Below are positions 936 to 33,403 of a stretch of DNA of 33,682 bases, one piece after another. The translations under genes and the position numbers were made by a program. A model generated the notes under the pieces. It searched no databases. It had not been told where the DNA came from and saw nothing but the letters and a program-made list of their open reading frames with translations. This stretch comes from a virus, in UHGV virus genome UHGV-0018978. One strand, given 5' to 3'. The number at the start of each line of letters is the position of its first letter. Within the stretch, counting starts at the first letter, position 1.

Positions 936-1505
936 TTAATCGCCTGATGTGAACGCTCTTACCTCGTCCAGGGTGGACAGCAGGGAAAGCTGCGCTTTCA
1001 TCTCTCGCTGGCGCTGATAAATTTCATCATTGCGATCAGCCTGCGCCTGAACCATTGCCGTAAGTAGTTCATCCAGTTGTTGCATTGACAACTTTACCTG
1101 CTGATTTTCCGCATCACTCCATACCATGGTTTTCGGTGCCGTGACTGATTTTGCTGACATCACCATCGGGTAAAGACGGGCCATCGAATCCGGTCCCCCG
1201 TTCCAGCTATGACCGTTCCATTCGAACGTGAACGGCTGCGCCTCCTGTTCTGTACGCCATTCTTCTATTTCCTGACGTTTGGCTGCTTTTACGGCCTCCA
1301 GCAGTTCTGGTGTCACGACGAACGGGGTAATCTCACCCCATCTCCCGCTTTGCAGTTCCTGCCAGACTCGCTGCCCTGTCTCTGCTGTATCAGTGGCAGT
1401 TGCCGTATACGGAACAGGGGCATCCATGCCATCAAACAACACCTCGCAGTCAATCGCGCCATTCTCAAGATAACGCGCATTTTCAATTCGTTTTATCTGC
1501 ATCAT
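936..1505 (-). CDS. Tail fibre assembly/chaperone protein of the second fibre module
   Basis: 189-aa ORF immediately downstream of the large fibre gene, 4-bp gap. Assignment is by position and size; the sequence is not a typical Tfa/U-type chaperone. Confidence 0.5.
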   Translation of the reverse strand: MMQIKRIENARYLENGAIDCEVLFDGMDAPVPYTATATDTAETGQRVWQELQSGRWGEITPFVVTPELLEAVKAAKRQEIEEWRTEQEAQPFTFEWNGHSWNGGPDSMARLYPMVMSAKSVTAPKTMVWSDAENQQVKLSMQQLDELLTAMVQAQADRNDEIYQRQREMKAQLSLLSTLDEVRAFTSGD

Positions 1506-1509
1506 CTAC

Positions 1510-2949
1510 CTACATAATACGGACAAACAGACCTGTTATCGAAGTACCTGCACTCACTTTAGTTGTGGGTTCCCCTGACAGTGCCACAAACGTCCCTGCC
1601 ATTGGATACGCCGAAGGCGGTGCAATTACAATCTGCGGAGTTGAGGTGCTCAGGCCATTATGGCTGTACGGCGCTGTAACAGAAATGGCAGCAAGTCTGG
1701 AGCCTGACACACCGCTTCCCCTGAAAATTCTTCCGTCTTCATCCATGTCATTTATGCAGTATGCGGCAAACACGACCCCGCCAATTCCTGGATAACCGTA
1801 ATTATTGGCTCTTCCGGCGATGGAACGTAGCGTATCCGCAATCCCTGTTTCACCCAGCTTCAACCTTTCCCAGCCAGTCAGATAACCATTACCTGTTGTC
1901 CAGTAACGGTTGTAATAAATATCGCCATTAATACCGTAGAAAATAATGACCTTTGCTGTATATCGCGGTTCCGGTGGATTATTGCGTACCTCAACCCAGC
2001 GGATGCTGACCACCCCGTTAAACAACACACCTCCGGATATGATTTTACTGCCACCATCAACAAAATATTCACCCGGCGTCGCATTCCTTGCCCAGGACAG
2101 AAAATCATCCTCTGTGTTAAAACGGATACGCTCTGCGGGCAAAAAAATATGCCCAAAACCAAATGCGCCAGGTGTCGCCAGACAGCCTTCAGTCCGGTCA
2201 CGAATGTCGCTCTGTGGCGTCATCGTGGCTGCGCTTTTCAGTCCAAGATTATCACGGGATTCCTGCTGAGCCTCTTCACCTTCATCAGCCAGCTCTGACA
2301 GGCGATTCGCCGTTTTCAGTGTCGCAGATAACGCGGTGTCAATATCCTCCCTGACATGCTCTGCATCAGATGCAGCCTGTTTAGCAGCTTCAGCGTCCTT
2401 TTTTACCTCCTCGGCGGCATTCTCAACCTGTGAGACCAGATTTTCGGCCTGTTGTTTACCCTCCGCAACCGCGTCGGCGTTCTGCTGAACACCTTCCGCC
2501 AGTTTTTTTACCTCTTCTTTTGCCCGGGCGGCAGCGTCTGCATGTTGCCCTGCCTGCTGCTCGCTTTCTGCTGCGGCTTCCGCGCTCTGCTGCGCCTGCT
2601 GTGCCAGTTCCTCGTATTTCTTCAGGGATTCCGGGCGCAGGTCAATATCGGTTGCGCCCAGAAAATCATTCAGCGAACCATCCGCTGAATCTTCATAAAC
2701 GCGGATGACACCGATTTCTGAAAGGCGCTGTACACTCTGCGTCAGGCGAACGCTGTACACGCCCGGCAGAACGGGGAAGTTATATTCCCCATTCTGTGTG
2801 GTGACGTGACTGAAAACACCTTTCAGAATCCCTGCACGGTTGTGCAGGGAGGTCAGTGTAATGGTTGCGCCGCCCAGCGGTTCTCCCGTGGGCGTTTTAA
2901 TCACACCTTTAAGCTGCGGCATCGGGACGCTCCGGCCAGTTGATGGCAT
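1510..2949 (-). CDS. Tail fibre protein (second fibre) with a central Ala/Glu/Gln-rich coiled-coil region
   Basis: 479-aa ORF. N-terminal beta-rich segment, then a long A/E/Q/K-rich segment (roughly DNA 2262-2622), then a Gly/Tyr/Asn-rich C-terminal domain. This architecture is typical of phage side tail fibres. Confidence 0.7.
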   Translation of the reverse strand: MPSTGRSVPMPQLKGVIKTPTGEPLGGATITLTSLHNRAGILKGVFSHVTTQNGEYNFPVLPGVYSVRLTQSVQRLSEIGVIRVYEDSADGSLNDFLGATDIDLRPESLKKYEELAQQAQQSAEAAAESEQQAGQHADAAARAKEEVKKLAEGVQQNADAVAEGKQQAENLVSQVENAAEEVKKDAEAAKQAASDAEHVREDIDTALSATLKTANRLSELADEGEEAQQESRDNLGLKSAATMTPQSDIRDRTEGCLATPGAFGFGHIFLPAERIRFNTEDDFLSWARNATPGEYFVDGGSKIISGGVLFNGVVSIRWVEVRNNPPEPRYTAKVIIFYGINGDIYYNRYWTTGNGYLTGWERLKLGETGIADTLRSIAGRANNYGYPGIGGVVFAAYCINDMDEDGRIFRGSGVSGSRLAAISVTAPYSHNGLSTSTPQIVIAPPSAYPMAGTFVALSGEPTTKVSAGTSITGLFVRIM

Positions 2950-7948: not shown

Positions 7949-9222
7949 CAGTCGGTAATCTCCACAGGTTGCGTCGGCAGAATGAATGACGGATGGCGCA
8001 GGCGGTTACGCTTCACGATTTCATCCCGTCGGCTGGTGTCACCATGCTCGCGCCATGCCAGCAATGCGGCAGATGTGGTTGTGGTCAACGTCACCTGCCG
8101 GGTTTCCGGCAGACGGGCGGCACGCTCGCGGGCATCCGTAATCACGGCCTGCCGTAAATCGCGCAGCGTTCGCCACAATGCCCGCTGGTTATTTTCCACC
8201 GCCGCCACCGCCTGCTCATGAAGTTCAGCCGCCAGCGTGTCACCGGCAGATAACGCCGCATCACTGGTATCGAACGTCATCGAGGCCACAGCATTTGCCT
8301 GTCCCAGCAGGGTTTCCAGCACAACCACCTGGCGGAAGTCGTCAATGTTCTTCTGCAGGCTGACAGATACCGGCTGATAATCCGGTGACAGCCCGATAGC
8401 AAAGCCAATTTCGCCGTCTGCCACGCTGCCTGGCTTCACGGTGATATCTTCCGGCAGTGCGCCGGTGGCAACCTGTCGGGCGCGTTCTCCGGCCCACTGG
8501 TTGCGTAATGTCGTGTAAACCGCCAGTGCTTCGGGTGGTTCCGTCACCAGATCAACCACGCCGTCGATGAACGAGGACAGCTCACTGACCAGGCGCCCCG
8601 GCGTGGCAATAATGGTTCCGGCCATCTCCTTAAAATGGTTCAGCCTGTCCATCCACTGATTCAGTGCTGCCGGTAGCGTGGGCAGGTTAGCCACAAGGTT
8701 TTCCATATCGGCCAGAAAGCTGTCGGCCATCTCACCCAGCCCGTCGAGTGCGCCGAACCAGTCGCCATCGTCAATGGCGGCTTTCACCGCATCAATGCCC
8801 GTCAGCACTTCCTGCTGCGTGTTATCCGCCGCAGACGGGAACAGGCGCTCGCCTGCCTCAAACACTTCAAAAGTGACATACGCAATGCCGTCTTCCTCCG
8901 TGCTGAGGCGATGGGTGACCTTGCCAACCTGTACGGTCTGTATCCCGAACCACGGGTGGATAAGCTCGCCGGGGCCGGGGGTATTGAGCGCGTCTAAAAG
9001 GGCGTTTAAATCATCCCGGAAGTTTTTACCTGGCAGCTTTGCGTTAATCTGCTGTTGCCCCGGAACGGCCCCGTTATCATCCGTCCAGGCGGTTTCACTC
9101 CGGGGGTAAGCACGGGGAATAGCCCTGCGGCCACCGGTGCCTTCTGTATCCACCAGAAAGAAGGGAACGCCGCGAAACGAGGCGTCGCGCAGCCCGTCCC
9201 ATTTGCCATTGCCTGTTGTCAT
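7948..9222 (-). CDS. Mu-like DNA circulation protein
   Basis: 424-aa ORF directly downstream of the tape measure gene, as in Mu-like phages. Confidence 0.55.
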   Translation of the reverse strand: MTTGNGKWDGLRDASFRGVPFFLVDTEGTGGRRAIPRAYPRSETAWTDDNGAVPGQQQINAKLPGKNFRDDLNALLDALNTPGPGELIHPWFGIQTVQVGKVTHRLSTEEDGIAYVTFEVFEAGERLFPSAADNTQQEVLTGIDAVKAAIDDGDWFGALDGLGEMADSFLADMENLVANLPTLPAALNQWMDRLNHFKEMAGTIIATPGRLVSELSSFIDGVVDLVTEPPEALAVYTTLRNQWAGERARQVATGALPEDITVKPGSVADGEIGFAIGLSPDYQPVSVSLQKNIDDFRQVVVLETLLGQANAVASMTFDTSDAALSAGDTLAAELHEQAVAAVENNQRALWRTLRDLRQAVITDARERAARLPETRQVTLTTTTSAALLAWREHGDTSRRDEIVKRNRLRHPSFILPTQPVEITD

Positions 9223-11069
9223 TACCCTTGCTCCACGCTGGTGACGCCAGCCTGCGCACTGAGTCTGACGCCGGGTTGATCCACTCTGACACTTTTCACG
9301 CGGGCATCACCTTCCACCACCACACGGATTTCCCCCTGCAATTGCTGCGGAAGGAAAGGATAATTCTGTGTGGGTTGCATACCTGCCCACGGTCGCGGGT
9401 CGGCAATGTTCTTGTCACCCAGCGAGTTGAACCAGTCCGTTACCTTACGCCAGACGGACTCGAGCGCTTTCTGGTTATCCTGGCTTTGTTGCGCGAACTC
9501 GCGCTCCCACGGGCTGGCGCTGGCATTACCGGCAACGAATTTTGTAAGGCTGTCAACCTCACCCGGCTGGGCATATTGCGTGGTCAGAAAATCGTAAAAC
9601 TCCAGAGCACCGGCAATGATGCCAGCGCCTTTACCTGCCTTTCCTCCACGCTTACCCGACCCCCGAGGATTGCGGGGATTGCGCGATGAATCCGGTGCAT
9701 CCGGCAGACCGCCGGTATTACCATTCATCCCGCTACTGCCCATATTGACCACATACACCGGCATCACGCCGGAGCCGAAAACATCCGTGATGCCACCGGG
9801 TATCCCTTTGCCTTTCCCTTTGGGATTCATGATGTCGTGGATGGTTTTACCGAACTGATACGTCTTTCTGATGGCGATAATGCCGCCCAGCGCGATCGCC
9901 ATATATTTACCGACCTGCAACCAGTTCTGGACAGTGTTCTGGTCCACGCTGTTGAGCGCATCAGCCAGGTCCTGAACGGGCTTTGCCAGTTGCCCTTCAG
10001 CAAAACGTTGCCATTCGTTATTCAGTGACTGTATTGCGGCATTAAAGCCTTCGGCATTGGTCTGTGCGGCCTTTTGCGTGGAACCCAGCTCAATCGTGCC
10101 GTAAATCATTTGTTCCATCAGTTGCCGGTTTTCAGGGTTGAGCAGCGCCTTAATCCCCTGCATCCCGGTCTGATCAAACACATCCTGAAGTTTCAGCGGG
10201 TCGTATTTGGCCCGTTTAAGGATTTCCATCATCAGCTCATAGGGCTTTTTGATGTCTTTTGTGCCTTTGACAAAAACGTCAATGCCGTTTTTTTTCAGGA
10301 ACTCGATGTTCTTTTTGTCCGACAGGGAAGCATACATGGCCTGAATACTGGTTACCGTCTCATCAATGCTGCCTTTGTTTTTGGCGAACACCTGAGCAAA
10401 TGCCCCCATCTGGGCAATGGCTTCCGGTCCCTGATCCTGAATGATGGAAAACAGTTTCGGGGCAGCGCGGGCAACATCGGCAACGCTTACAGACCCCACT
10501 GCGAACTGCGAATACAGCCTGTCCATCATGTTATTGACCGCATCAGCACCCCGGACGTTTTTTTCCCAGAACTGGGCCATCAGCCCGGCTGCAACCTGTC
10601 CGTCAACACCGAACGCCTGCATCATCAACCCCATGTTGCGGAGGTTGTCCACCACATACTGATAATCACCGGTTTTCCCCAGAAGTTCGCTGGCCCCCTG
10701 ACCAAGCGCAGAAGCATCAATACGAATATCTTTCTGGTTCGATACATCCCTGATTTTGTCGTGAAGCGTCTTTACCTGTTCAGTGGTTAACTGGGCATCC
10801 GTACCCATCCGGCGCATCTGCGCATCAAAATCGGCAACCTGTTTGATGGTAAGACTACTGCCAAGCCCGGCTATCATTGCCGTGTAGCGGTTACCAAGCG
10901 TATCAAGGCCGCGTCCTGCGGCCTCCGTTGTGGCTTTGACAAGGCGCATGGCCTTCTGATGGTTCCGGGCGAACTGCGACATATTTGCGCCGTACTGCCG
11001 GGCTTTGGCGGTCAGGTTCCCGGCAAGGTTGATCATGATTTCCGTGCTGAGACGGTTACCTGTTGCCAT
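9222..11069 (-). CDS. Tail tape measure protein
   Basis: 615-aa ORF between the tail chaperone and baseplate genes; Gly-rich stretches (GKGKGIPGG, GSGKRGGKAGKGAG) and predicted helical regions. Confidence 0.7.
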   Translation of the reverse strand: MATGNRLSTEIMINLAGNLTAKARQYGANMSQFARNHQKAMRLVKATTEAAGRGLDTLGNRYTAMIAGLGSSLTIKQVADFDAQMRRMGTDAQLTTEQVKTLHDKIRDVSNQKDIRIDASALGQGASELLGKTGDYQYVVDNLRNMGLMMQAFGVDGQVAAGLMAQFWEKNVRGADAVNNMMDRLYSQFAVGSVSVADVARAAPKLFSIIQDQGPEAIAQMGAFAQVFAKNKGSIDETVTSIQAMYASLSDKKNIEFLKKNGIDVFVKGTKDIKKPYELMMEILKRAKYDPLKLQDVFDQTGMQGIKALLNPENRQLMEQMIYGTIELGSTQKAAQTNAEGFNAAIQSLNNEWQRFAEGQLAKPVQDLADALNSVDQNTVQNWLQVGKYMAIALGGIIAIRKTYQFGKTIHDIMNPKGKGKGIPGGITDVFGSGVMPVYVVNMGSSGMNGNTGGLPDAPDSSRNPRNPRGSGKRGGKAGKGAGIIAGALEFYDFLTTQYAQPGEVDSLTKFVAGNASASPWEREFAQQSQDNQKALESVWRKVTDWFNSLGDKNIADPRPWAGMQPTQNYPFLPQQLQGEIRVVVEGDARVKSVRVDQPGVRLSAQAGVTSVEQG

Positions 11070-15552: not shown

Positions 15553-16458
15553 TTATGCCGGGGTGGTGATGTACGGGCTGTCCACGATCTCCACATCCTT
15601 GTACCAGATGTTGGAATCGCCGCCGTTAACCAGCATGGCGTCAACAATGAGCTTCGCGTCCGCACGGTTTTTCGGCCCCACCACAAGGGTGGTCGGGCGG
15701 ATGCCCAGCGGCTCACCGTTGGTGCCCTTCATGCCCCGCAGCAACTCATTGGCTTTTTTGTAGTTCTCCACCGTCAGTGCTGCACGGGAACCGACGGCGG
15801 TCTGCCAGAAGCCGAAGCCCGCATTACAGCGACCGTCCACGCCGTACAGGAACTCGTGGTTCTTGAAGGTGTGCTCGCTGTTCAGATCGTCCAGGGCTTC
15901 AAACTTAAAGGCGCGTCGCGTCTGCCAGATGATGGGTTTCAGTACCTGCGACTCATCAATCAGGAACCACGGCTCACCCTTGTCTGATGCCGGGGTGCCG
16001 ACAACGTTGCTGTACGTGCCGTCACCCAGCGGGTGGTCTTCATCAAAGAAGTTCTGGCCGTCAAAGCACAAAGTTTTGAATCCGGCACACAGCAGGGCGT
16101 AACACAGCTTGTCCGGGAACACGGCTGTCATACGTCCATAGCGTTCAGCAGTAATGCTGTACTGACCAATCTGGTCATCTTCAATGTGTTCGCGCTTAAC
16201 GCGAATGGAACTTTCCCAGAGTTTGTTGGTGATGGTGTAACCATAACCGTCCAGCGTTGCCAGCTGACGCTCACCGACCCATTCTTTGATGTCCGGTAAA
16301 TCTTTCATCCAGCCGTAGGTGTTGGAGGCTGACGAACTCGGCACCTCAGAAGCAATGCGATTCCACTGCGGTTCGACACCACTCAGTCCACGGGTAAAGG
16401 CGGCGCTCAGGCAGGTGGTCAGCGCGTGAAGGATTTCAGAACTGACAGTCTGTCCCAT
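15553..16458 (-). CDS. Major head (capsid) subunit, Mu T-like
   Basis: 301-aa ORF immediately downstream of the protease/scaffold gene; size and synteny match Mu T. Confidence 0.8.
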   Translation of the reverse strand: MGQTVSSEILHALTTCLSAAFTRGLSGVEPQWNRIASEVPSSSASNTYGWMKDLPDIKEWVGERQLATLDGYGYTITNKLWESSIRVKREHIEDDQIGQYSITAERYGRMTAVFPDKLCYALLCAGFKTLCFDGQNFFDEDHPLGDGTYSNVVGTPASDKGEPWFLIDESQVLKPIIWQTRRAFKFEALDDLNSEHTFKNHEFLYGVDGRCNAGFGFWQTAVGSRAALTVENYKKANELLRGMKGTNGEPLGIRPTTLVVGPKNRADAKLIVDAMLVNGGDSNIWYKDVEIVDSPYITTPA

Positions 16459-17420
16459 TAGTTATTCTCCTGTTTTGGTTTAGCGGCGAGGAACTCTTCC
16501 CCGGTAATACCCATGCTGCGGCACATCGCCAGTTCGGCGTCGGTCAGTGTCTGCGCGGGTTTATCCTTGCCCTGGCTGGGCTTGTCGTTGTTCACCAGCG
16601 GCTGTGCACCTCTGGTGTACTCCGCAAACTGTTTGCGGCCTTCTTCCGTGCGGCAGGTGGCAAGGAACATGTCACGGTTTGCCGGGGCCACTTTTCCGGC
16701 TTCGATGGCCGCATCCACAAGCGCTTCTGCTTCCTTCTCTTCCAGTTGCTGAAGGCGTTGTTCTGCGGTTTCGGCACGGTTCAGTGCAAGATTGTGGGTT
16801 TCCACCGGTACAAACTTCGTCAGGTCAGGTGTCTGTGCGCGGTTCAGCGCCACCTGTTCGTTCTCCTGAAGTTGTTTAATGGCGGCCACGGTATCGTCCA
16901 CCGTGGCGGATTCAGCCAGCCCAAGCAGGCCAGTGATTTGCACAGGTACTGTCATCGGGTTTTTCTCCGTATTCAGTGCAGGAAAATCCAGGTTAGGTTT
17001 GTTGGTCAGTCCGACGCTGGACAGGCGTGTCACCACACCCTCCGCGTCATAGAAAAACGCCGGGCTGTAATAGCGGTAACGGCGTTCGCTCAGCATCCAC
17101 CGGGCGTACTCGCTCCAGACAACACGGCCTTCAATGGTGCCGCTGTCCGTCACGCGCAGTTCTTCCACCCAGCCATACGCCGGGGCTTCATCACCGCGTT
17201 GCCCTTTAATTTCGGTGGCGTGTTCAATGTCCACCGGAATTTTGATGTCGGACGAGCGGGTGACCACCTCATGCGGATTGCGGTTAATCCACGTCCGGCC
17301 ATCGCGCCCGGTGAACTCACCCACAGGGATGAGTTCGAGCCATTCCGGCAGTTGAGCAGGTGTCAGCTCAGGGATGGGTTCTGGCAGGGAAAAACACAGC
17401 GCCAGCAGTTCCGGTTGCAT
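16458..17420 (-). CDS. Head maturation protease/scaffold protein, Mu I-like
   Basis: 320-aa ORF with an N-terminal region followed by an Ala/Glu-rich helical scaffold-like C-terminus; sits between F and the capsid gene. Confidence 0.75.
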   Translation of the reverse strand: MQPELLALCFSLPEPIPELTPAQLPEWLELIPVGEFTGRDGRTWINRNPHEVVTRSSDIKIPVDIEHATEIKGQRGDEAPAYGWVEELRVTDSGTIEGRVVWSEYARWMLSERRYRYYSPAFFYDAEGVVTRLSSVGLTNKPNLDFPALNTEKNPMTVPVQITGLLGLAESATVDDTVAAIKQLQENEQVALNRAQTPDLTKFVPVETHNLALNRAETAEQRLQQLEEKEAEALVDAAIEAGKVAPANRDMFLATCRTEEGRKQFAEYTRGAQPLVNNDKPSQGKDKPAQTLTDAELAMCRSMGITGEEFLAAKPKQENN

Positions 17421-17469: not shown

Positions 17470-17492
17470 AAAAAAAAGCCGGATTTACCGGC
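17470..17492 (-). terminator. Rho-independent terminator (GCCGG-TAAAT-CCGGC plus T8) between F and I
   Basis: On the minus strand a 5-bp GC stem with 5-nt loop is followed by eight T. A near-identical copy lies at 25206-25227. Confidence 0.65.
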
Positions 17493-17634
17493 TTCACTGA
17501 ATACGGGGAAATACCCCCTTCAAAACCCCTTCAAAAACGCCACAGCATCTTCAAAAACGTCAGAATGCACATTCACGCCATCAGAATAAAAAACGCGTTT
17601 CTGATGCGTTTCAGGGGGATTTACGGCGGGAGGG

Positions 17635-23323: not shown

Positions 23324-23943
23324 TTCGGCCCCGCAGACATTTTGTGACGACTTGATTTGCTGTAACGGGCAAAGCCGTCAAGGGTTCTTACGCCGAGATA
23401 GCCCAGCGCCGGGGTAAGCAACATCAGCGTGATATCCCAGTCCGGTGACGGCATATGCAGCGTGATACCTCTGGCACCGGCAATGGCTCCGGCAATCTGG
23501 CCGCAGGAGAGCAACAGCACATAGGCCAGACTGCTGTAACAGGAAAGGCGGGCCAGTAGCGGGCGCGTCTGGCGCACATAGCTGTCCGTGGCGTTGTCAC
23601 CATTGCGGATGGTTTCCTGCTGTTCGTGGTGTGCGGCCTGCTGGTCAGCCAGCACCAGCTTCTGCCGTTCCACCTCCAGCTGTTGCAGCTGAACTTTCAG
23701 GGTTTCCATCTGCATCAGTTGCTCCGGTGACAGCATCACCAGTTTTTGTTCCAGAATGCGTTGCTGTTCAGCCACCGGCAGGCTTTCCCGGACACTTTCC
23801 ACCATACCGGCCACCGAGTCAGCGGCGGCAGATGTGCTGCCACCAAACCAGCGTCCGACTGAACGAATCAGCCCCGGCCCGGCTTTCAGCAGAACAGAGG
23901 CGATGCCTGAAAGGGTTAACGGATCCACGGAAAACCTCCACAC
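23320..23943 (-). CDS. Putative holin/lysis membrane protein
   Basis: 207 aa with hydrophobic segments at both ends and a central coiled-coil/Gln-rich region; lies in the lysis cassette. Confidence 0.5.
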   Translation of the reverse strand: MWRFSVDPLTLSGIASVLLKAGPGLIRSVGRWFGGSTSAAADSVAGMVESVRESLPVAEQQRILEQKLVMLSPEQLMQMETLKVQLQQLEVERQKLVLADQQAAHHEQQETIRNGDNATDSYVRQTRPLLARLSCYSSLAYVLLLSCGQIAGAIAGARGITLHMPSPDWDITLMLLTPALGYLGVRTLDGFARYSKSSRHKMSAGPK

Positions 23944-24341
23944 AGATAACGCTGAAGACAGAGCAGGCCACCGCAGCCGCTACCACACAGCCAGAATACT
24001 GGTTGAGATAATGTTCCCATCAGCAGAATGCCGCAGACACAGCAGAAATATCCCAGCGCCCAGACCACCCATGACCACACGATGATGTGGCGGCCAAAAG
24101 CCCGGTAACGGACTTCGGGCAGCAGACGATATGGCACATTTCCCAGGCTGGCGCTGTATGAAAACAGTACAACGCAGGAAAAGCCCAGCAGCATCAGCAC
24201 GAACGATCGCCAGCCACATAACATGCTTATGATGAACATGCAGAGCGTCAGCCCGGCCAGGGGCCACGGCGTTCTCATCAGTCGGGAACAAATCAGCCAG
24301 TCACACAGTTTTAAAATTTTGTTCATTACCTTTTTCCACAT
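23916..24341 (-). CDS. Putative multi-pass membrane protein (holin candidate)
   Basis: 141-aa ORF with 3-4 hydrophobic segments rich in Cys/Trp. The unusual composition means it could be a spurious frame. Confidence 0.3.
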   Translation of the reverse strand: MWKKVMNKILKLCDWLICSRLMRTPWPLAGLTLCMFIISMLCGWRSFVLMLLGFSCVVLFSYSASLGNVPYRLLPEVRYRAFGRHIIVWSWVVWALGYFCCVCGILLMGTLSQPVFWLCGSGCGGLLCLQRYLCGGFPWIR

Positions 24342-24552
24342 TGAATTTTTCCCTGTACTTCTGGCACTGCCAGAAAATGTCCCGTGTATCTACGGAGTTC
24401 CAGCCACGCATGTAGTAGCTGGCGTGTGTGCCGTCATGGCCGGTATAATCCAGCGGTTTCGGGGGCGGACCTCCGGCCATGCGGTGCAGAACCTCCTGAC
24501 GCAGGCGGTCACGTCGCCCGGCTTTCAGTGAGGCGTTCCAGCCTTTGCCCAT
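24301..24552 (-). CDS. Small hypothetical protein coupled to the endolysin gene
   Basis: 83-aa ORF whose start lies next to the endolysin stop; no recognisable motif. Confidence 0.35.
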   Translation of the reverse strand: MGKGWNASLKAGRRDRLRQEVLHRMAGGPPPKPLDYTGHDGTHASYYMRGWNSVDTRDIFWQCQKYREKFNVEKGNEQNFKTV

Positions 24553-24553
24553 A

Positions 24554-25150
24554 TCACCCCCGCGTGGCGGACATGATGCCCAGAGGGGTATCGATGATTT
24601 CCAGACAGGCGTCGGTCAGTTCTTCCATGCGGTTAAACCAGCCGTTCAGGTATTTGCCACGAGCGGGTTTTGATTTGATGAGGCCCGCATAAAAGCGGCA
24701 ACGGCGAACAATGCAGCGGGACAGCAGCCAGTCCGGGGTGGACAGGCTCACAGCCTTGCGGGTACGCGGGCCGATGATGCCATCGGCAGACACATCAGCG
24801 GCTTCCTGTAAAAACTTGACGGCTTGCTCCACGCCATGCTGAACAGCCGCATCAAACACAAAGAGCGCCACACCATCAGGCCACTGATCACACCCGGCAA
24901 GCAGCCAGTAATCGCGCCAGTAAATCTGCGCAACCTGTTCGCGGGTCAAATCCTTAATGCGGGTATCTGGTTTGCCGTCGCCGTTGACATCGGTTTTGCC
25001 GTCAATCACACCGTCGCGGCGGTCAGAAATGCCGTATTTTGTTTCGCCGCCGCTGTCAGTGGGGTCATTGACATAGCCGCCTTCGATATCAGGACGCAGA
25101 ATAAAATTCAGCGCATGTTCAAAGGCCGGGGAGAATTTTTGATTTTCCAT
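24554..25150 (-). CDS. Endolysin, GH108-type lysozyme with a peptidoglycan-binding domain
   Basis: 198 aa. The N-terminal EGGYVNDPTDSGGETKYGIS motif is characteristic of GH108 enzymes. No N-terminal transmembrane/SAR segment. Confidence 0.75.
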   Translation of the reverse strand: MENQKFSPAFEHALNFILRPDIEGGYVNDPTDSGGETKYGISDRRDGVIDGKTDVNGDGKPDTRIKDLTREQVAQIYWRDYWLLAGCDQWPDGVALFVFDAAVQHGVEQAVKFLQEAADVSADGIIGPRTRKAVSLSTPDWLLSRCIVRRCRFYAGLIKSKPARGKYLNGWFNRMEELTDACLEIIDTPLGIMSATRG

Positions 25151-25205
25151 AAAAGCACCTGTGAAGCAGATTTAAACGTGGTCTGCTTCATGGTGCCGGA
25201 GGCAT

Positions 25206-25227
25206 AAAAAAAGCCGGATTTACCGGC
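25206..25227 (-). terminator. Rho-independent terminator (GCCGG-TAAAT-CCGGC plus T7) downstream of the secreted-protein gene
   Basis: Same stem-loop as at 17470-17492, with a T-run on the minus strand, about 25 bp after the stop of the 25252-25749 gene. Confidence 0.65.
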
Positions 25228-25251
25228 TTCATTGAATATAAGGTTATTGGT

Positions 25252-25749
25252 TCAGTTAACTTTACGGGCAGAACACGTAGTCTTCATTACTGAACGTTCA
25301 ATTTTTATCTTCCAGCCATTTACTGTTTTTTCGACAGGATCATCTTCAGCTTGCTTTAAATTTTTAACTTGCATGAAATTCAGCGGGGCTGGGGTATCAT
25401 CGTCCCATGATGTCGGGCGAACATAATCAGGGACAACAAAAGGCTCAAAAACAGTTTCACATAAAGCAGACGTCATTTGAGCGAACTCGTCGCTATCGGG
25501 GCGAACCGGTCCTGTAACATACTGCATTTTTATGTTGATTTCGTTATCTCGCACAGACGTCTTTAAATCCTGATATACACCTAAGTTAAATCCTTTAAAC
25601 TCAGCAATGGCAGCGTCACCTTTACCGTACCAGTCGGTATAGTCAACGGATGTTTTTTTCTGAAAAACATCTTTGACTTTTTGCTGGAATGTATCCGCCG
25701 CTTGTACAGTAGTAACAGTTAGTAAAAGAATAAGGGGAAGATATTTCAT
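25252..25749 (-). CDS. Secreted/periplasmic protein of unknown function with an N-terminal signal peptide (candidate moron)
   Basis: 165 aa starting MKYLPLILLLTVTTVQA-ADT, a typical Sec signal. The gene is AT-rich relative to the flanking phage genes and has its own terminator. Confidence 0.6.
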   Translation of the reverse strand: MKYLPLILLLTVTTVQAADTFQQKVKDVFQKKTSVDYTDWYGKGDAAIAEFKGFNLGVYQDLKTSVRDNEINIKMQYVTGPVRPDSDEFAQMTSALCETVFEPFVVPDYVRPTSWDDDTPAPLNFMQVKNLKQAEDDPVEKTVNGWKIKIERSVMKTTCSARKVN

Positions 25750-26147
25750 TGTTCGTCCTTAAATAGTTGCATTTGATACTTTCCACGCTCCAGTCGGCGC
25801 ATTCTTTTGATGGCCTGATATACCGTTTTGTATGTCACTTTGTAACGCTGCACCAGCTCCGCTACGTTTTTCCCATCAAAATCACGCCAGATGCGCATGT
25901 CTCTGATAAGATTTTCCAGTATTTTCCCTTTCGGAACATATACCTGAATCCCACCGATATGATTGCAAATCGCCACTACCAGCTCAAGGGAGTGGGCAGG
26001 GTTAACTCCAAGCCTTATCAGCTCTTGTCGCAACAGAGCATTCAGCTCAGCCAGTAAAGATGGAAATCCCGATTTTTCCTGAACATCATCAAAATATTCA
26101 AGGATACTGTCGTCCTGATAATCACCAAATAAATCCTGCTCTTTCAT
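25746..26147 (-). CDS. mor: Mor/C-family transcriptional activator
   Basis: 133 aa with an acidic N-terminus and a C-terminal helix-turn-helix (TYKTVYQAIKRMRRL); sits directly after gemA, as mor does in Mu. Whether it is the Mor or the C orthologue cannot be settled from sequence alone. Confidence 0.7.
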   Translation of the reverse strand: MKEQDLFGDYQDDSILEYFDDVQEKSGFPSLLAELNALLRQELIRLGVNPAHSLELVVAICNHIGGIQVYVPKGKILENLIRDMRIWRDFDGKNVAELVQRYKVTYKTVYQAIKRMRRLERGKYQMQLFKDEQ

Positions 26148-26695
26148 AGAACTATTCTCCCGCTGTTTCTGGCGCGGGCATACGCACTGGTCAGTGCATC
26201 ATATCCGCGCAGTTCCCGCCCGGTTTCGCTCACAGGTAAAGGCACGCCATGTCGGGTAAAGGCTTCCCGAATGCAGCGCATATGCCACTGCTTGAGCGTT
26301 TCGAGCACAACCTGCAACGATTCCCCATGACACCAGGCCAGCGTGGAAACACCCTGACCACCATTACGTCTGGCCGTCAGGCGTGCAACGTATTTGTCCA
26401 GCGCGGCGTCGCTGCCATCAGAGACAAAACCATCAAAGGACATCTGCTGCCAGATTTTATAAATCTTCTCGCGTGGTGTGACATACCCCTTAAAGCGACG
26501 TCGGGGATGTTTTTTCTGCTTCTTAAACCCGCGCTCTTTCATGGCATCGAGCACCTGTTCCAGTTGTGCAACGGACAGCTCGCGGCAACTGGTTTTGCCC
26601 GTGCACTGCACCAGAAAGGCTCGGTAAGTGTCATCGTCGAGGTGCAACTCCCGGCGGGCAACATGAATTAATTTAATCAGGGATGTGCGACTCAT
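26144..26695 (-). CDS. gemA: GemA-like regulatory protein (Mu gp16 family)
   Basis: 183-aa ORF immediately upstream of the Mor-like gene, matching the Mu gemA-mor arrangement. Confidence 0.65.
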   Translation of the reverse strand: MSRTSLIKLIHVARRELHLDDDTYRAFLVQCTGKTSCRELSVAQLEQVLDAMKERGFKKQKKHPRRRFKGYVTPREKIYKIWQQMSFDGFVSDGSDAALDKYVARLTARRNGGQGVSTLAWCHGESLQVVLETLKQWHMRCIREAFTRHGVPLPVSETGRELRGYDALTSAYARARNSGRIVL

Positions 26696-27062
26696 TTTGC
26701 CCCATCTCCTTAATGCAGTGTTTTTCGACCCATGTCACACGAGCAGAATTCAGGTGGCATCTGTCATGTAGGCATTCATCATGGTAGTGCACGTTATCTA
26801 CATTAAATGGCAGGGATTCATCCAGCCCACTCGCGACAAAATCCGCATGTAATTGTTCTAGCGCAGCTTCGCTGTCTGCCCCGATTGATTCAAAATAGTC
26901 ATAAACATTGGCGCATAATCCGACTCCACGAATAAACCCTTCCCCTTCCGTTTCTTGCGCTCCGTTTTTTAACCACTGGTTATAGGCGACATAAAAATCA
27001 TAAAGATGTTTTCTGATGCTGGCGGATGTGGATTTAATTTCATTTTTCTCTGCGTTATTCAT
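26673..27062 (-). CDS. Hypothetical early-region protein
   Basis: 129-aa acidic ORF in the semi-essential early region; no motif recognised. Confidence 0.45.
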   Translation of the reverse strand: MNNAEKNEIKSTSASIRKHLYDFYVAYNQWLKNGAQETEGEGFIRGVGLCANVYDYFESIGADSEAALEQLHADFVASGLDESLPFNVDNVHYHDECLHDRCHLNSARVTWVEKHCIKEMGQNESHIPD

Positions 27063-27237
27063 TTCTTAATACCTCTTCGCAATAAAAGATTTCGCTTGGA
27101 TAACGTTTTTGTATGCGCTCCATCACCTGCATACATGCCTGCTCTGTGGGCCAGATTTTTTCTGTTACCGGAATGGCATCACAGGCATCATTTCCACAGG
27201 TGCCAACCAGCAGGACAAAGCCAATTAACTTAATCAT
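27055..27237 (-). CDS. Small signal-peptide/lipoprotein-like protein
   Basis: Internal start MIKLIGFVLLVGTCGND... gives a 61-aa protein with a hydrophobic leader ending near Cys; ATG at 27237 lies 2 nt after the upstream stop. The listed 92-aa ORF is probably over-extended. Confidence 0.4.
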   Translation of the reverse strand: MIKLIGFVLLVGTCGNDACDAIPVTEKIWPTEQACMQVMERIQKRYPSEIFYCEEVLRNE

Positions 27238-27772
27238 GCTCGCTGATTTCCTGTGTTGCCGCCGGAACCGGTGAATAATCAAGAATGAGATAGCGCAGGA
27301 CGTGGTCGGTGATATTCCAGCCACTGGAGCCACAAATAAAACGACCCAGCCGGATATCGATATAAGCCATCACAAAACGGGGCATTCCCTGTTTGCACAT
27401 CTCGTCATCCACTTCAGCAACGATGTGAACCGACTCGCAAGTCAGTACACCTGTCGCAAATTCTTTTGCCAGTGCCGGAATGGCATTGCCTTCCAGCCAG
27501 GGCAAAGAGCGGCGGAACGCGCACCATTGAGCATCATCAATATCGGGGTGCTCCGTTGTTGCGTTTCGTCTTACTGGCGGCGTTGGACGAGGGCGCTGAA
27601 CGTCATAAAAGCCATTACATTCAGTCAGCAATCCGGCATCAACCGCATCGCGCAGGAAATACACCATTGAGGAAGGTGGCATCTTCATTTTTTCAGCCAG
27701 AACGCCACAAGTCAGACGGCCGTAAGCGCGTAATAATGTACTGACACCGTTCAGAATTTTTGCATCAATCAC
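27230..27772 (-). CDS. Hypothetical early-region protein with a possible N-terminal HTH
   Basis: 180-aa ORF tightly packed with its neighbours. Confidence 0.45.
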   Translation of the reverse strand: MIDAKILNGVSTLLRAYGRLTCGVLAEKMKMPPSSMVYFLRDAVDAGLLTECNGFYDVQRPRPTPPVRRNATTEHPDIDDAQWCAFRRSLPWLEGNAIPALAKEFATGVLTCESVHIVAEVDDEMCKQGMPRFVMAYIDIRLGRFICGSSGWNITDHVLRYLILDYSPVPAATQEISEHD

Positions 27773-27775
27773 CGG

Positions 27776-28381
27776 TTATTCCTCCGTCAGCGCCACAAAT
27801 TCAGAATGTTTAATGCGCTGGCATTCGGCGGGAACCGGTCCCTTAACCTCACCGCCAAGAAGGCGTACTTTAAACAAAATGCCGAATCCATCACGGTCGT
27901 GGTGCATTTCCCACACTGATTTGATGTCAAACAGGTCAACTTCGGCATCTACATTAAGTTCATTACACAGCCAGCCCGGAAAATCCGGGTGTTTTTTGAG
28001 CTGATTTTCACAGTCCCGGATGAGCTTCCCGTACTCACGGCCTGCCGGTATTGTCATATCCGGCATTGCGCCCCATAACTGAATATCACCAATGAAAAGT
28101 GTCTTTGATTTAGCCTCCCATCCTTCCGGTGGTAAACGGTTAAACCAGACACGCGTAACCCTCTCAGACCCTTTGTCACCAGACAAAGACACACCGGTTG
28201 CATTCACTGATTGCTGTAATAACGCAATAACCTCACCACGCTTAACAGAAACGTCTTTCAGCCAGCGAATCGTATAAGCGTTAGCGGCTGTGTCACTCAG
28301 TTTAAAATAAGCACATGCTGTCATTTTCATTCTCTCCGGTTCTGATTCAGGCGCGAGTAGTCCCCTGACGCATCGCGCCAT
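27776..28381 (-). CDS. Hypothetical early-region protein
   Basis: 201-aa ORF (start may be the internal MKMTACAYF) directly downstream of gam. Confidence 0.45.
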   Translation of the reverse strand: MARCVRGLLAPESEPERMKMTACAYFKLSDTAANAYTIRWLKDVSVKRGEVIALLQQSVNATGVSLSGDKGSERVTRVWFNRLPPEGWEAKSKTLFIGDIQLWGAMPDMTIPAGREYGKLIRDCENQLKKHPDFPGWLCNELNVDAEVDLFDIKSVWEMHHDRDGFGILFKVRLLGGEVKGPVPAECQRIKHSEFVALTEE

Positions 28382-28421: not shown

Positions 28422-28946
28422 TTAAATACCGGCTTCCTGTTCAAACGGAATAATGGAAAAATCTTCAATGCCCGATTTAACTGTAATTCCGGCGACACCT
28501 GCGACCGCTTTCGGTTCCAGTAAAATCGCTTCCTTGTTGATTTCCTGTTTCGTGCGAATAAAACGTTGCAGGCCAAGACGCTCCAGCGTTTCCATCACCG
28601 CATCCACACCGCGAATACTTACCGATGGTGGGCGCTGACGCCATGATACATCGCCGGTTACCAGGTTTGCTGTCTTCACCTTGCCGCCGTTCGTCAGTTC
28701 GTCACGGTTCGCTTCACACCATCCCTGAACACCTTTTGAAAGGGTTTCGATACTGGTTTTAAGCGGCGCAATCTGTGAGGCGTATTTCTCCGTAATCTCA
28801 GCAATAGCGTCATTCATTTCTGTTTCAAGTCGTGCCGCTTCGCGTTGCAGGTCCCCAATCCGGCGGATATCACATACCACGGCATCGCGGGATTGCGGAA
28901 CATAAGCCGCTGCGGCGCTCTTGATTCGTTTTGCTGGTTTAGCCAT
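28422..28946 (-). CDS. gam: Host-nuclease inhibitor Gam (binds DNA ends)
   Basis: 174 aa, MAKPAKRIKSAAAAYVPQSRDAV...GIEDFSIIPFEQEAGI; length and sequence agree closely with my recollection of Mu Gam. Confidence 0.85.
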   Translation of the reverse strand: MAKPAKRIKSAAAAYVPQSRDAVVCDIRRIGDLQREAARLETEMNDAIAEITEKYASQIAPLKTSIETLSKGVQGWCEANRDELTNGGKVKTANLVTGDVSWRQRPPSVSIRGVDAVMETLERLGLQRFIRTKQEINKEAILLEPKAVAGVAGITVKSGIEDFSIIPFEQEAGI

Positions 28947-30230: not shown

Positions 30231-30436
30231 CCATTAAGACGGGCCGTCCATACTGAACGGGCAACCCCGGATTTATGCTCCATAATTCTGACCGCGCTTT
30301 TTACCAGTTCCACTGGTGGGTAAGTGATTTCAAGAATCGGACGCGCCACACCGAGATATGATTCATTTACATAACTCCCGCGCGCCTGTAACCAATGCTG
30401 CGCATCTTTTGCCATTTTGATATTACGAGACATCAT
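30209..30436 (-). CDS. kil: Kil-like host cell division inhibitor
   Basis: 75-aa ORF immediately downstream of B, the position and size of Mu kil. Confidence 0.55.
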
Positions 30437-31392
30437 GATTTAGTATCCTCTTTCACACCCAGCAGCATCGAAACATCAACGTCCTGGTCTAACTCTTTGT
30501 AAGCCTCTCGCAGATAATCCTCGTTAACACGTTCGCCTTTACCGAAGGCATTCATAACAGCAAGGCGCAGAGTTTGATTCATAATGCGGAGTGCACCGGG
30601 CGTTTGTGCAATCTGCTGTAATAGTTCCCGTTCATTTTTCCCGGTAATCTGCCAGGCATCCGCAATAGCGTTTACATCGTCTTCTTTGGTTTTATTAATT
30701 GCAGTGCGCTTTGCAATACGGGAAAACAGACGGGCAAACTCAATTGTTCTGTCGCCATTACTGGTCATATTTGAATAAACACGGTGATTCCCCATCAGAA
30801 CAAGACCAATACAGGCTGATTCCTGTAACAGACGGAGTTCTTCCAGCGCCTCGGTGTCGAGGTGATCAGCTTCGTCAACAATGACCAGCCCCTGTGTTCC
30901 CTTTAGGCGACGACGCAGATTGCGGGAAAGCGGCCCTTTGCGACATGGTGCATTATTCATTCCCAATTCTTCGGCAAGTTCGGTCAGACATTCCAGTGTA
31001 CTGGCACGGGATGGCGCAATGGTGATCATCCAGACATTATTATTAGTGCGACAAAATTCACGGGCCGCTTCGCTTTTACCCACGCCAGGATTACCGCAGA
31101 TAACAGCAATAGTTCCGGTCAGATTAGCAAAACGCATACTTGTCCAGATTTGACGGGCTGTTGTAGTTTCCACAAAACGCGGGGGTTCCGGCAGTTCTTC
31201 AGCGCGGTGATAGTTTTCCAGCCAGCGTTGCAGTGTGCTCCCGATTGCTTCCATGTTGCCGTTATATTTATCATTCACAAAACCACTGACTGTGCTCAGG
31301 GCTACACCTGATTCACTGGCGATGCGTGTCAGCGTGGTTTCTCCATTGTCTACAAGCGTGCGCAGTCCTGCGCGAATATCGGAAATATTCAT
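30433..31392 (-). CDS. B: Transposition ATPase / target DNA activator B (MuB)
   Basis: 319 aa, [14 protein letters not shown]... with Walker [11 protein letters not shown] and Walker [11 protein letters not shown]; closely matches my recollection of Mu B. Confidence 0.9.
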
Positions 31393-31430: not shown

Positions 31431-33403
31431 TTAAATGGCTTTTTTGCGTCTTTTCTGTTCCAGAATATCCAGTGACTGATTCAGATATTCATCACGAGAG
31501 GGTTCGTATTTATCATCGGGGGTGCGATATTTAACCTGCACTGTGTTACCTACAGGCCGGAAAATACCAACAACCCTTGATTCTGGTGCTGCTGGTTCGG
31601 CTATCTGCGGCAGTAATTCAGCAACTTCCAGTGCGTCCATTTGTTTCTGTGCCTTAATCGCTGCTTTCGTCGCAGATTTCAGTTGTTTCTGGCGTCGGCG
31701 ATACTCACGACCTGCCGCAGCATCATTAAATGCAACTGGTGCCAGACATTCCGCTTCACAGATAAACCGACCGTCCAGGGTGTAGCAATAAACAGTGCTG
31801 TGTAGCTGCTGCGGATCAAACCTGACCACGACTTTTTTCACTCCGGCATTCATTAATGCCATGTTGTAATAAACGTTTTTCGCGCCTTTAAGAGAGCCGC
31901 CAACTTTAAGCGTAAACTCGCCTTTGCGTGAAACGTTCACCGCCTCAGCAGGCAGTAACAACATCCGTTTTTGTTCTTCGGTTGGCTTACGTACAATCGT
32001 TCTGGCGTATTCACGCTCAAAAACATCATCAAACGAAAGTTTGCCCCCGCACATTTCTGTTTCACGGCCTGTTCTGGCATTGAACATCGCCACACCTTCG
32101 GCAAGTGTTTTCAGAAACAGTTCTGCATCAATAGCCCGGTCGCCATAGTTATCAGGTTTTGCCTGCGGATTTGGCCCCGTATATGCGCCAGCCAGCGCCG
32201 GATGCTTATCAACATATTCCTCAAGTCCCCCTACACCAAAAGCGCGTTCAACTGGTTTTGCCTGCCCCCAGCCCTTACCAGCAACAACACTTGTCCAGTG
32301 CATGGTGGCCCCCATCAGTAAAAACAGTCCCTTTGGATCATCCTCTTTCACTTTAAAGCGGTAGCGATTGGGCGCGCCCCCCGTCAGCCATTTATTCGCT
32401 GCGCCACGGGTGTTATCAATAGTGATATGAAAATCCTCCGGGATGCCGTAGCGTGTCACCACATCCATGAACGAGAGGCGAATTGAATCGATGTTCTCGC
32501 TTACATCGCAACGCCAGCCCAGAATTTTTCGGGTTTTCACATCCTGCCAGAACCATGTTTTCGGGCGGATCACATCACCGTTAAACCAGCGTACAAAGAC
32601 GTTATGGAGATAACCGTCGCCGTTGATCCACTGCATAGCGTCCAGGTGTTCCACAGTTCGCTGCTGTGCCGGTATCAGATGCATCAGTGCATGTTCACCT
32701 TCACGGCAGGCAACAACCATTGCCTCGTCCAGTTGCTGAATCCGGCGAAAGGCCGTGGCACGGGAGGGAATATTCCAGCCATGCTCACGTGCAGCCAGTT
32801 CCAGACGCTCATAACATTTGCGGAAGGCGGGCTTTTCCGGTCGCAGATAATCTGCAATCAGAAACTGCCAGGCATCCTCGTCAAATTCACTTTTGTGAAC
32901 ATTGCGACGAGATGCACCACGTCCATCAACAAGTGCAGCCGCCCAGTCAGGCTTCGCAAACTTCTGTACCGCACAGTGGATGCGCTGACCTGGTAATGCC
33001 CTGCAACGGTCGCAAAAGCCGTTTTTGTTGAAATCCCCTGGTTCAGCATTTCGTCTGCGGCCTGAACTGCAGGCAACCATTTTTCAGCAAGTCTGCGCTG
33101 GGAATCGCTGGCGTTATCCCATTTGCTCCACAGTGCCTCACGATCGTAATCGTGCGCTTCCAGCGTGGGGCGGGCGATTTCAAAATACCCCTGGCTTGTT
33201 TCAATACCTCCTTGTTGCAATAAAATTTCAGCACGTAATGCAACAGGAAATGATTTGATATTGAATTCAAATGATACGCCTTTAGTACCTGTAACTTGCC
33301 TAAACACCCAGCCTTCTCTTTGTGCCTTACGTGTAATGTTAGTTGCTTGCTTTGGCAAACCAGCAAAACCAAGCAATTCTTTCGCTGTATACCACTCTTT
33401 CAT
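31431..33403 (-). pseudogene. A: DDE transposase A (MuA-like, D108-type N-terminus), split by a frameshift near 32968
   Basis: The N-terminal 181-aa ORF (32858-33403) and the 549-aa ORF (31431-33080) are in different frames. Conserved sequence runs ...[11 protein letters not shown] in frame 1, then continues [19 protein letters not shown]... in frame 2, with about 223 nt of overlap. The 549-aa part includes the catalytic core and C-terminus. Confidence 0.7.

What the first reader, a model, noticed from the sequence alone, without database searches (positions are those of the whole stretch)
25252..25749. AT-rich secreted-protein gene with its own terminator between the activator gene and the lysis cassette
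The 165-aa ORF has a classic signal peptide and no recognisable phage function. Its DNA is visibly more AT-rich than the flanking phage genes and it is followed by a strong intrinsic terminator. These are hallmarks of a moron. Possible roles include surface modification, superinfection exclusion or a host-interaction factor.
Basis: partly seen in the sequence, partly recalled or inferred. Interest (0 to 1): 0.6.

Follow-up and report, generated by a model that had tools for sequence, protein, structure and literature searches.

The report
Secreted accessory protein gene behind mor
This is a real but uncharacterised gene for a small exported protein that some Mu-like prophages of E. coli carry as an optional last gene of their early operon; the "terminator of its own" belongs to the phage backbone, so it is a fairly ordinary accessory gene rather than a self-contained moron.

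Summary
A 165-codon ORF lies at 25252-25749 on the minus strand. It has a Sec-type signal peptide (predicted cleavage VQA|AD) and the lowest GC of 44 genes in the window (40.4% vs 54.1%). A strong hairpin plus T-tract follows it.

The moron reading is only partly right.
- The ORF is optional. Closely related E. coli prophages carry it (9 genomes), a different 159-aa secreted protein (24), or nothing (14) between mor and the lysis genes.
- Its start overlaps the mor stop codon (ATGA), and no promoter was found.
- The hairpin is invariant in all three configurations and stands directly after mor in phage Mu. There it overlaps the mapped Mor-binding site of the middle promoter.
- A second exact copy of the site precedes the protease gene in this window.
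- So the hairpin is a backbone element: early-operon terminator plus activator site of the late lysis promoter.

The protein belongs to a rare family (17 representatives among 1.84 billion proteins; related to PHROG 28288, function unknown). It sat immediately after mor in 18 of 19 loci, was AT-rich in all 12 measured, and is under purifying selection. A confident model shows an alpha+beta fold with no solved relative.

Function is unknown. My best guess (about 0.3) is an early periplasmic envelope or superinfection-exclusion protein.

The parts
25252..25749 (-). ORF165: gene for a 165-aa precursor of an exported, two-cysteine, about 17-kDa alpha+beta protein
25699..25749 (-). Signal-peptide coding part (residues 1-17, predicted cleavage VQA|AD). 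The first ~45 nt are shared at DNA level with the alternative 159-aa cargo gene.
   Evidence: AF2 pLDDT is below 50 for residues 6-15.
25756..25760 (-). Shine-Dalgarno AAGGA, 6 nt before the ATG, inside the 3' end of mor
   Evidence: read from the sequence
25746..26147 (-). mor (Mor/C-family activator, 133 aa). Its TGA stop overlaps the ORF165 ATG (ATGA at 25749-25746).
   Evidence: PF08765, E = 6.6e-30
25218..25233 (-). AATGAAGCCGGTAAAT: counterpart of the Mu Pm Mor-binding 16-mer (AGTAAAGCCGGTTAAT), taken to be the activator site of the late lysis promoter
   Evidence: 2 exact hits in the window, 0.19 expected by chance
25206..25230 (-). Hairpin GAAGCCGGTAAATCCGGCTTT plus T-tract: intrinsic terminator ending the early operon. 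It is a backbone element, not specific to ORF165.
25154..25197 (-). Two-tier hairpin in the spacer before lys. The outer stem GGCACC/GGTGCT pairs the lys Shine-Dalgarno. Also here: predicted -10 CACCAT at 25195-25190 and predicted start near 25182.
   Evidence: MFE -21.2, z = -4.5; an equivalent hairpin with different inner-stem sequence in 8 other loci. Promoter positions are inferred from Mu spacing.
24554..25150 (-). GH108 endolysin, first gene of the lysis/late operon downstream
17483..17498 (-). Second exact copy of the activator site (plus the hairpin), about 60 nt upstream of the head protease gene (16458-17420). This corresponds to Mu P_I.

Best explanation
ORF165 is a genuine, dispensable accessory gene of a Mu-like transposable prophage of E. 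coli.

Shown:
- It is wedged between the stop codon of mor and the conserved Mor-site/terminator hairpin that precedes the lysis operon.
- It has a good ribosome-binding site inside mor, and its ATG overlaps the mor stop codon.
- It encodes a precursor with a Sec/SPase-I type signal peptide. The mature 148-aa acidic protein has two invariant cysteines. One lies in the long central helix and one in the last strand of a confidently predicted alpha+beta sandwich.
- The family is confined to Mu-like phages and is almost always in this same slot.

Inferred:
- It is transcribed from the early promoter as the last cistron of the early operon, is translationally coupled to mor, and its mRNA ends at the backbone terminator.
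- It is therefore made early after induction or infection rather than in the repressed lysogen.
- It is exported to the periplasm and disulfide-bonded there.
- The invariant residues are turn glycines, tryptophans and the cysteine pair, with few charged ones (K43, D45). This is no recognisable catalytic constellation, so it more likely acts by binding than by catalysis.

Guess at the function (about 0.3): it binds an envelope component or an incoming phage part, to close the infected cell to further infection or to protect the envelope until lysis. This is the way T4 Sp/Imm or T5 Llp act.
For: Gene reality and constraint.

Position and coupling. Of 19 loci with a family member, 18 have it directly after mor, with a gap of -1 to 21 nt wherever that gap was measured; L020 has about 750 nt of extra DNA between them, and L006, L010-L014 and L022 were not measured. 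Yersinia L007 has the gene between gemA and mor.

Dispensable slot: 9, 24 and 14 E. coli genomes carry this ORF, the alternative ORF, or no ORF, with identical downstream DNA.

Terminator as backbone and Mor site.

No own promoter.

Export signal, two Cys, size and pI.

Structure: pLDDT 84, pTM 0.77.

No enzyme family or fold match.

Faster divergence than its neighbours (for example dN 0.36 vs 0.21-0.22 for mor and lys against the Citrobacter phage).
Against: - No expression data. The early-operon assignment rests on analogy with Mu and on the absence of a consensus promoter in a coarse scan.
- The functional guess has no direct support. There is no similarity to Sp, Imm, Llp, Cor, Sim or any known exclusion protein.
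- A comparison with one prophage of each other slot type gave no evidence of linkage to a tail type. The window's tail-fibre tip differs from both, which carry different slot contents; whether those two share a fibre was not tested.
- Among close relatives dN/dS is as low as in the neighbouring genes, so there is no sign of an arms race at short range.
- Signal-peptide cleavage and the disulfide bond are predictions.
Confidence: 0.55

Rival explanations
1. Classical moron or lysogenic-conversion gene. ORF165 is expressed from the repressed prophage by a promoter of its own inside mor. It benefits the lysogen, for example by surface change, stress resistance, colonisation, or exclusion of other phages in the lysogenic state.
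For: - Extra DNA relative to related prophages.
- Deviant GC.
- A secreted product with no core phage function.
- The carriers include ETEC and STEC isolates from animals.
Against: - No sigma-70-like site in mor on the coding strand.
- ATGA overlap with mor.
- The terminator is shared backbone.
- The family is confined to Mu-like phages in one slot rather than shared with bacterial chromosomes or other phage types.
Confidence: 0.15
2. Lysis accessory. The protein is a periplasmic regulator of lysis timing, or a protector against premature or external cell-wall attack. Examples would be an antiholin-like sensor or an inhibitor of the GH108 endolysin or of host autolysins.
For: - It sits directly upstream of the lysis cassette in 18 of 19 loci, including two loci where GH108 is not detected.
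- The periplasm is where the endolysin acts.
- Early synthesis would precede endolysin synthesis.
Against: - It is separated from the lysis genes by a terminator, and about 14 prophages with a closely related (about 90% identical) lysis cassette lack it.
- No match to the Ivy, MliC, PliC or PliG lysozyme-inhibitor families by sequence or fold.
- In Yersinia it lies upstream of mor.
- It shows no linkage with the variable 141-aa membrane protein of the cassette.
Confidence: 0.12
3. Host-takeover or anti-defence effector. The early periplasmic protein neutralises a host envelope function, such as a protease, a peptidoglycan enzyme, the division machinery or an envelope-based defence, to favour phage development. 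This would resemble the semi-essential early-region genes of Mu but act in the periplasm.
For: - Location in the accessory part of the early operon, next to other variable early genes.
- Dispensable and fast-evolving.
- Binding-protein-like conservation pattern.
Against: - No similarity to any known anti-defence or inhibitor family.
- The single PADLOC hit (ZorB, E = 0.0024, 15 bits, residues 7-85) covers the hydrophobic signal region and is not credible.
- No target can be named.
Confidence: 0.15
4. Not a functional gene: a chance or decaying ORF in an AT-rich spacer.
For: No family annotation. The window protein itself gave no phrog_28288 match even with the E-value limit raised to 10.
Against: - Homologues of full length down to about 20% identity with invariant motifs.
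- dN/dS 0.08-0.18.
- Confident fold prediction.
- Conserved signal peptide and ribosome-binding site.
Confidence: 0.01

Closest known systems
Phage morons (HK97 gene 15, lambda bor/lom type; definition in Cumby, Davidson and Maxwell 2012, PMC3594210)
   Same: Extra gene between two genes that are adjacent in related phages. Its GC differs from its surroundings. The product is exported or acts on the envelope, and it has no role in core phage functions.
   Different: No promoter of its own was detected, and translation appears coupled to mor. The terminator is a backbone element also present where the gene is absent. The family stays in one slot of one phage lineage instead of being scattered by horizontal transfer.
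PHROG 28288 (unknown function) and PHROG 38744 (unknown function)
   Same: 16 of 17 aligned family members match phrog_28288 (best E = 6.5e-41). The alternative 159-aa occupant of the same slot is phrog_38744 (E = 1e-87).
   Different: The window protein itself is too diverged to pass HMMER's filters against phrog_28288. Neither PHROG has a function or a Pfam or NCBIfam counterpart.
Early periplasmic/envelope superinfection-exclusion proteins: T4 Sp and Imm, T5 Llp, phi80/N15 Cor, P1 Sim (from my own knowledge of the literature)
   Same: Small, exported, non-enzymatic proteins. T4 Sp/Imm and T5 Llp are made early in infection. All are dispensable for growth in the laboratory.
   Different: No sequence or fold similarity. 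The window protein has no lipobox, unlike Llp and Cor. No exclusion phenotype is known for this family.
Phage Mu mor-to-lys interval: Pm, genes 18-20 and C (PMC9239132, PMC4390567, PMC4287176)
   Same: Same genomic interval. The same Mor-site/terminator hairpin follows the early operon. In Mu too the interval holds small non-essential envelope proteins (gp19 and gp20 have transmembrane domains).
   Different: This phage has a single Mor/C-family activator and no middle operon. ORF165 lies upstream of the hairpin, on the early side, whereas Mu 18-20 lie downstream, on the middle side. There is no similarity to gp19 (hhalign probability 0.2%).

Membership tests
Moron (independent transcription unit added to a phage genome) | Extra DNA between genes that are adjacent in related phages | tested here: met
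   In 14 E. coli genomes (verified in STEC388, L005) and in phage Mu, mor is followed directly by the hairpin.
Moron (independent transcription unit added to a phage genome) | Nucleotide composition different from the surrounding genes | tested here: met
   GC 40.4% vs 54.1% for the window, z = -2.9. The same holds in 12 other loci. The difference from mor is only 3 points.
Moron (independent transcription unit added to a phage genome) | Own terminator | tested here: not met
   The hairpin and the spacer down to lys are identical with, without, or with another insert. The hairpin is invariant in 9 divergent loci and present after mor in Mu. A second copy precedes the protease gene.
Moron (independent transcription unit added to a phage genome) | Own promoter allowing expression from the repressed prophage | tested here: inconclusive
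   No sigma-70-like site on the coding strand within mor, and the start overlaps the mor stop. A consensus scan cannot exclude a weak or activator-dependent promoter, and there are no expression data.
PHROG 28288 | Significant match to the family HMM | tested here: inconclusive
   Window protein: no hit even with the E-value limit raised to 10. P0002, its 85%-identical homologue: E = 0.0035. More distant members: down to 2e-25. The link holds by transitivity through the profile search.
Periplasmic lysozyme inhibitors (Ivy, MliC/PliC, PliG) | Match to the family domains or their folds | tested here: not met
Lipoprotein receptor-blocking exclusion proteins (T5 Llp, Cor) | Lipobox with Cys at +1 of the mature protein | tested here: not met
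   The signal peptide ends VQA|AD and has no Cys. Only one very distant member (L024) has an LLAC motif.
T4 Sp / Imm-type early superinfection exclusion | Blocks entry of superinfecting phage DNA or the tail lysozyme | not testable with these tools
   Needs plating, adsorption and DNA-entry assays. There is no sequence or fold similarity.
Mu middle-operon proteins gp18-gp20 | Homology to Mu gp19 (the gene in the same interval) | tested here: not met
   hhalign probability 0.2%. The gp18-like protein of this phage is a different gene, 24301-24552 (its counterpart in L008 carries PF26867).

The most novel reading that the evidence does not exclude
The position right behind mor would be a dedicated, exchangeable cassette site of enterobacterial Mu-like phages, holding one hypervariable superfamily of early-made periplasmic proteins. 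PHROG 28288-like proteins and the 159-aa PHROG 38744 proteins would be remote homologues with the same two-cysteine alpha+beta fold. Alleles would be swapped by recombination between the conserved mor 3' end/signal-peptide start and the Mor-site hairpin. Together they would form a so far undescribed class of envelope-acting exclusion or protection factors specific to transposable phages.
Probability: 0.2. Interest if true: 0.55.

Novelty: new member of a known kind. Interest (0 to 1): 0.33.

Why it matters
The interest is modest.
- It defines an uncharacterised, phage-restricted family of exported proteins with a fold that has no solved relative.
- It defines a recombination slot where Mu-like prophages of E. 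coli, including ETEC and STEC isolates, carry one of two secreted proteins or none. That is a tractable place to look for new envelope-level phage-phage or phage-host interactions.
- It is a useful caution for genome reading. The usual hallmarks of a moron (low GC, a following terminator) can arise when a passenger gene is inserted upstream of a backbone regulatory element. Here that element is the combined early terminator and Mor-binding site.

Tried and rejected
Searches that found nothing useful:
- Pfam, NCBIfam and PADLOC gave nothing for the protein.
- The ZorB hit (15 bits) lies over the signal-peptide region and was discarded.
- tblastn against 50,697 phage records found no match.
- A profile search of PDB sequences gave only a 0.017 hit to a Gram-positive anchor-domain protein, which I discarded.

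Fold searches of the confident model:
- Foldseek PDB best E = 0.16.
- BFVD best E = 3e-3 with TM-score 0.35.
- afdb50 was not available.

Relationship to the alternative 159-aa cargo:
- BLASTP and hhalign give only an N-terminal match (probability 38-73%).
- Its AF2 model is poor (pLDDT 57), so homology stays unproven. A greedy alignment does put both cysteines and the Trp/Gly motifs in register.

Other checks:
- Mu gp19 as a counterpart: rejected.
- Linkage of slot content with tail fibre or other late genes: two whole-prophage comparisons were uninformative.
- Rfam: no RNA family in the window.
- My first assumption was that the Mor site is the hairpin palindrome itself. The published Pm positions corrected this: the site is a 5-6-5 element covering the 5' arm and loop of the hairpin.

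Full report
**Setting.** The window is an almost complete Mu-like prophage read on the minus strand. The gene order is:
- transposase A (31431-33080 and beyond) and B (30433-31392);
- gam (28422-28946), gemA (26144-26695) and mor (25746-26147);
- the ORF in question (25252-25749);
- a GH108 endolysin (24554-25150), small membrane proteins, TraR and DUF2730;
- terminase, portal, protease, capsid and tail genes.

The region is 99.7% identical to prophages in E. coli isolates such as ETEC1732.

**The observation.**
- The ORF exists at the stated coordinates, on the minus strand, and encodes 165 aa.
- Its N-terminus (MKYLPLILLLTVTTVQA|ADTF) has the three regions of a Sec signal peptide and a -3/-1 cleavage site. 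The mature protein is 148 aa, 16.9 kDa, pI 5.05, with two cysteines.
- Its GC content (40.4%, GC3 34.9%) is the lowest of 44 genes, against 54.1% for the window (z = -2.9). The early region as a whole is lower in GC than the late region, and mor itself is 43.5%.
- A strong hairpin plus T7 tract follows 21 nt after the stop codon.
- The gene is real. Full-length homologues exist. dN/dS is 0.18 and 0.08 in two close pairs, similar to mor, lys and other neighbours.

**What surrounds it.**
- The ATG overlaps the mor stop codon (ATGA), and an AAGGA ribosome-binding site lies 6 nt upstream inside mor.
- No sigma-70-like promoter is found on the coding strand within mor.
- Forty-seven records from 5,426 complete E. 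coli genomes carry this mor-lys junction, in three states:
  - this ORF, in 9;
  - a different 159-aa ORF that also has a signal peptide and two cysteines, in 24 (L002);
  - nothing, with mor ending at the hairpin, in 14 (checked in STEC388).
- An alignment of the three states shows that the hairpin and the whole spacer down to the lys start codon are identical in all of them. The divergence between the two cargo genes begins about 45 nt into the signal-peptide coding region.

**The hairpin is a backbone regulatory element.**
- In phage Mu the sequence AAGCCGGTTAATCCGGCTTTTTTT stands 6 nt after the mor stop codon.
- Table 3 of Ma and Howe 2015 (PMC4390567) gives Pm positions -57 to -52 as GTAAAC. 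That string occurs 5 times in the 4.7-kb Mu stretch examined. The occurrence spanning the mor stop codon (L004 1368-1373) is the one I used as the anchor.
- This places the Mor-binding 16-bp element (-51 to -36, a 5-6-5 dyad; PMC4287176 and PMC4390567) at AGTAAAGCCGGTTAAT. That is the 5' arm and loop of this hairpin.
- That the hairpin is also the Mu early terminator t9.2 is my recollection of the older literature, not something I could check here.
- The window has AATGAAGCCGGTAAAT at 25233-25218. A second copy, AGTGAAGCCGGTAAAT with the same hairpin, lies at 17498-17483, about 60 nt before the head protease gene, the position of Mu P_I. These are two exact matches to the degenerate site where 0.19 are expected.
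- Both copies have a -10-like hexamer with A at position 2 and T at position 6 (CACCAT, CATACT), within one base of the spacing seen in Mu.
- In 9 divergent loci the hairpin is invariant in stem and loop, with no compensatory change. That pattern fits a protein-binding site better than a purely structural terminator.
- The element therefore most likely both ends early transcription and serves the single Mor/C-family activator of this phage at its late promoters. ORF165 was inserted upstream of it.

**The family.**
- Only 6 clusters among 5.8 billion proteins and 17 representatives among 1.84 billion are related.
- Invariant positions are Y41, K43, G44, D45 (motif DWYxKGD), C97, G145, W146 (motif NGW) and C159. 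W40, K63 and W115 are nearly invariant.
- Sixteen of 17 aligned members match PHROG 28288 (function unknown). The window protein itself is below HMMER's filters. The 159-aa alternative is PHROG 38744, also of unknown function.
- In 18 of 19 loci with a family member the gene lies directly after mor and before the lysis genes. These loci are 16 IMG/VR contigs of 19.5-79 kb, Citrobacter freundii and Trabulsiella. The pattern holds even where Mor is only 38-43% identical and no GH108 endolysin is detected. In a Yersinia prophage it lies between gemA and mor.
- Each of the 12 members measured is AT-rich (GC 0.37-0.43 against 0.46-0.54 for its locus). Low GC is thus an old, stable property of the family, not a trace of recent import.
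- The gene diverges faster than mor and lys over long distances.

**Structure.**
- AlphaFold2 on a six-sequence alignment gives pLDDT 84 and pTM 0.77. The order of elements is helix 17-32, four strands, a long helix 86-105 that carries C97, a loop with a short helix, then three strands, the last of which carries C159.
- The conserved residues are mostly turn glycines, tryptophans and the cysteine pair, with few charged ones (K43, D45). That points to a binding protein rather than an enzyme. This is an inference.

**Is the alternative cargo related?**
- Profile-profile comparison gives 72-73% probability, carried by the first 51 columns. A greedy extension places W40/W41, KGD/KGG, both cysteines and NGW/LGF in register.
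- The model of the 159-aa protein is poor (pLDDT 57) but has the same order of elements in its better-predicted C-terminal half.
- Remote homology is plausible but not shown.

**Mechanism.**
- Shown: the anatomy above.
- Inferred: expression as the last early cistron, export, and a periplasmic disulfide.
- The function is a guess. Early, exported, dispensable, non-enzymatic phage proteins that have been studied mostly block superinfection or protect the envelope (T4 Sp and Imm, T5 Llp). I put about 0.3 on that.
- Smaller shares go to a prophage-expressed conversion factor, a lysis accessory, or a periplasmic host-takeover or anti-defence effector.
- Nothing here discriminates strongly among these rivals.

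**Comparison and verdict.**
- Against the definition of a moron (PMC3594210), two features are met: added DNA and deviant GC. One is not met: an own terminator. One is unresolved but unlikely: an own promoter.
- The gene is best described as an accessory passenger of the early operon in a conserved cassette site.
- It is a new, uncharacterised member of a familiar kind of phage gene. Interest is moderate to low.

Noticed in passing
window 25154-25197 (minus strand); L008, L015-L021 equivalent spacers: The spacer between the hairpin and lys folds into a two-tier stem-loop. Its outer stem (GGCACC/GGTGCT) pairs the lys Shine-Dalgarno. Its inner stem differs in sequence but is kept in every locus (z = -3.4 to -5 in 7 of 9). 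With Mu-like spacing the Mor-dependent start (about 25182) falls at the end of the 5' arm. Read-through early RNA would then have lys translation blocked, and the late RNA would not.
   Followed up: partly
window 17483-17498 and 25218-25233 (minus strand): Two exact copies of a 16-mer that matches the mapped Mu Pm Mor-binding site. Each sits inside a terminator-like hairpin and lies upstream of lys or of the head protease gene. This suggests that the single Mor/C-family activator of this phage drives the late promoters directly, with no middle operon and no C gene.
   Followed up: partly
window 27776-28381 (minus strand): A 201-aa early-region ORF has no counterpart in the two related E. coli prophages compared, and no Pfam, NCBIfam or PADLOC hit. 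The neighbouring small ORFs at 26673-27062 and 27055-27333 are also replaced or strongly diverged in the relatives. The early region thus has several variable slots, not only the one behind mor.
   Followed up: no
window 23916-24341 (minus strand): The 141-aa multi-pass membrane protein of the lysis cassette (holin-like position) is only 37-42% identical in prophages whose flanking lysis genes are 85-99% identical (L010, L012, L025). That indicates allele replacement inside the cassette. It does not co-vary with ORF165.
   Followed up: no
window 9222-11069 and 936-2949 (minus strand): The 615-aa tail protein (tape-measure position) is 60% identical in STEC388, whereas its neighbours are 95-99% identical. 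The C-terminal two thirds of the 479-aa tail fibre and the 189-aa downstream ORF have no counterpart in either relative. Both are mosaic host-range modules.
   Followed up: no
L003 (E. coli RM9088), L005/L026 (STEC388): Several related prophages are decaying. Their gemA genes are pseudogenes (an internal stop in RM9088, a frameshift in STEC388), and ISCro1 (IS66 family) is inserted in the early region or in the baseplate genes.
   Followed up: no
L020 4179-4931: In one IMG/VR Mu-like contig about 750 nt lie between mor and the family gene. They include a second, weak Mor-like segment (35% identity over 48 aa), possibly a second activator gene as in Mu.
   Followed up: no
window ORF165 residues 43-45: An invariant K-G-D tripeptide sits at the predicted turn between strands 1 and 2. 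It is most simply a structural turn. I did not examine whether it has any ligand-binding meaning.
   Followed up: no
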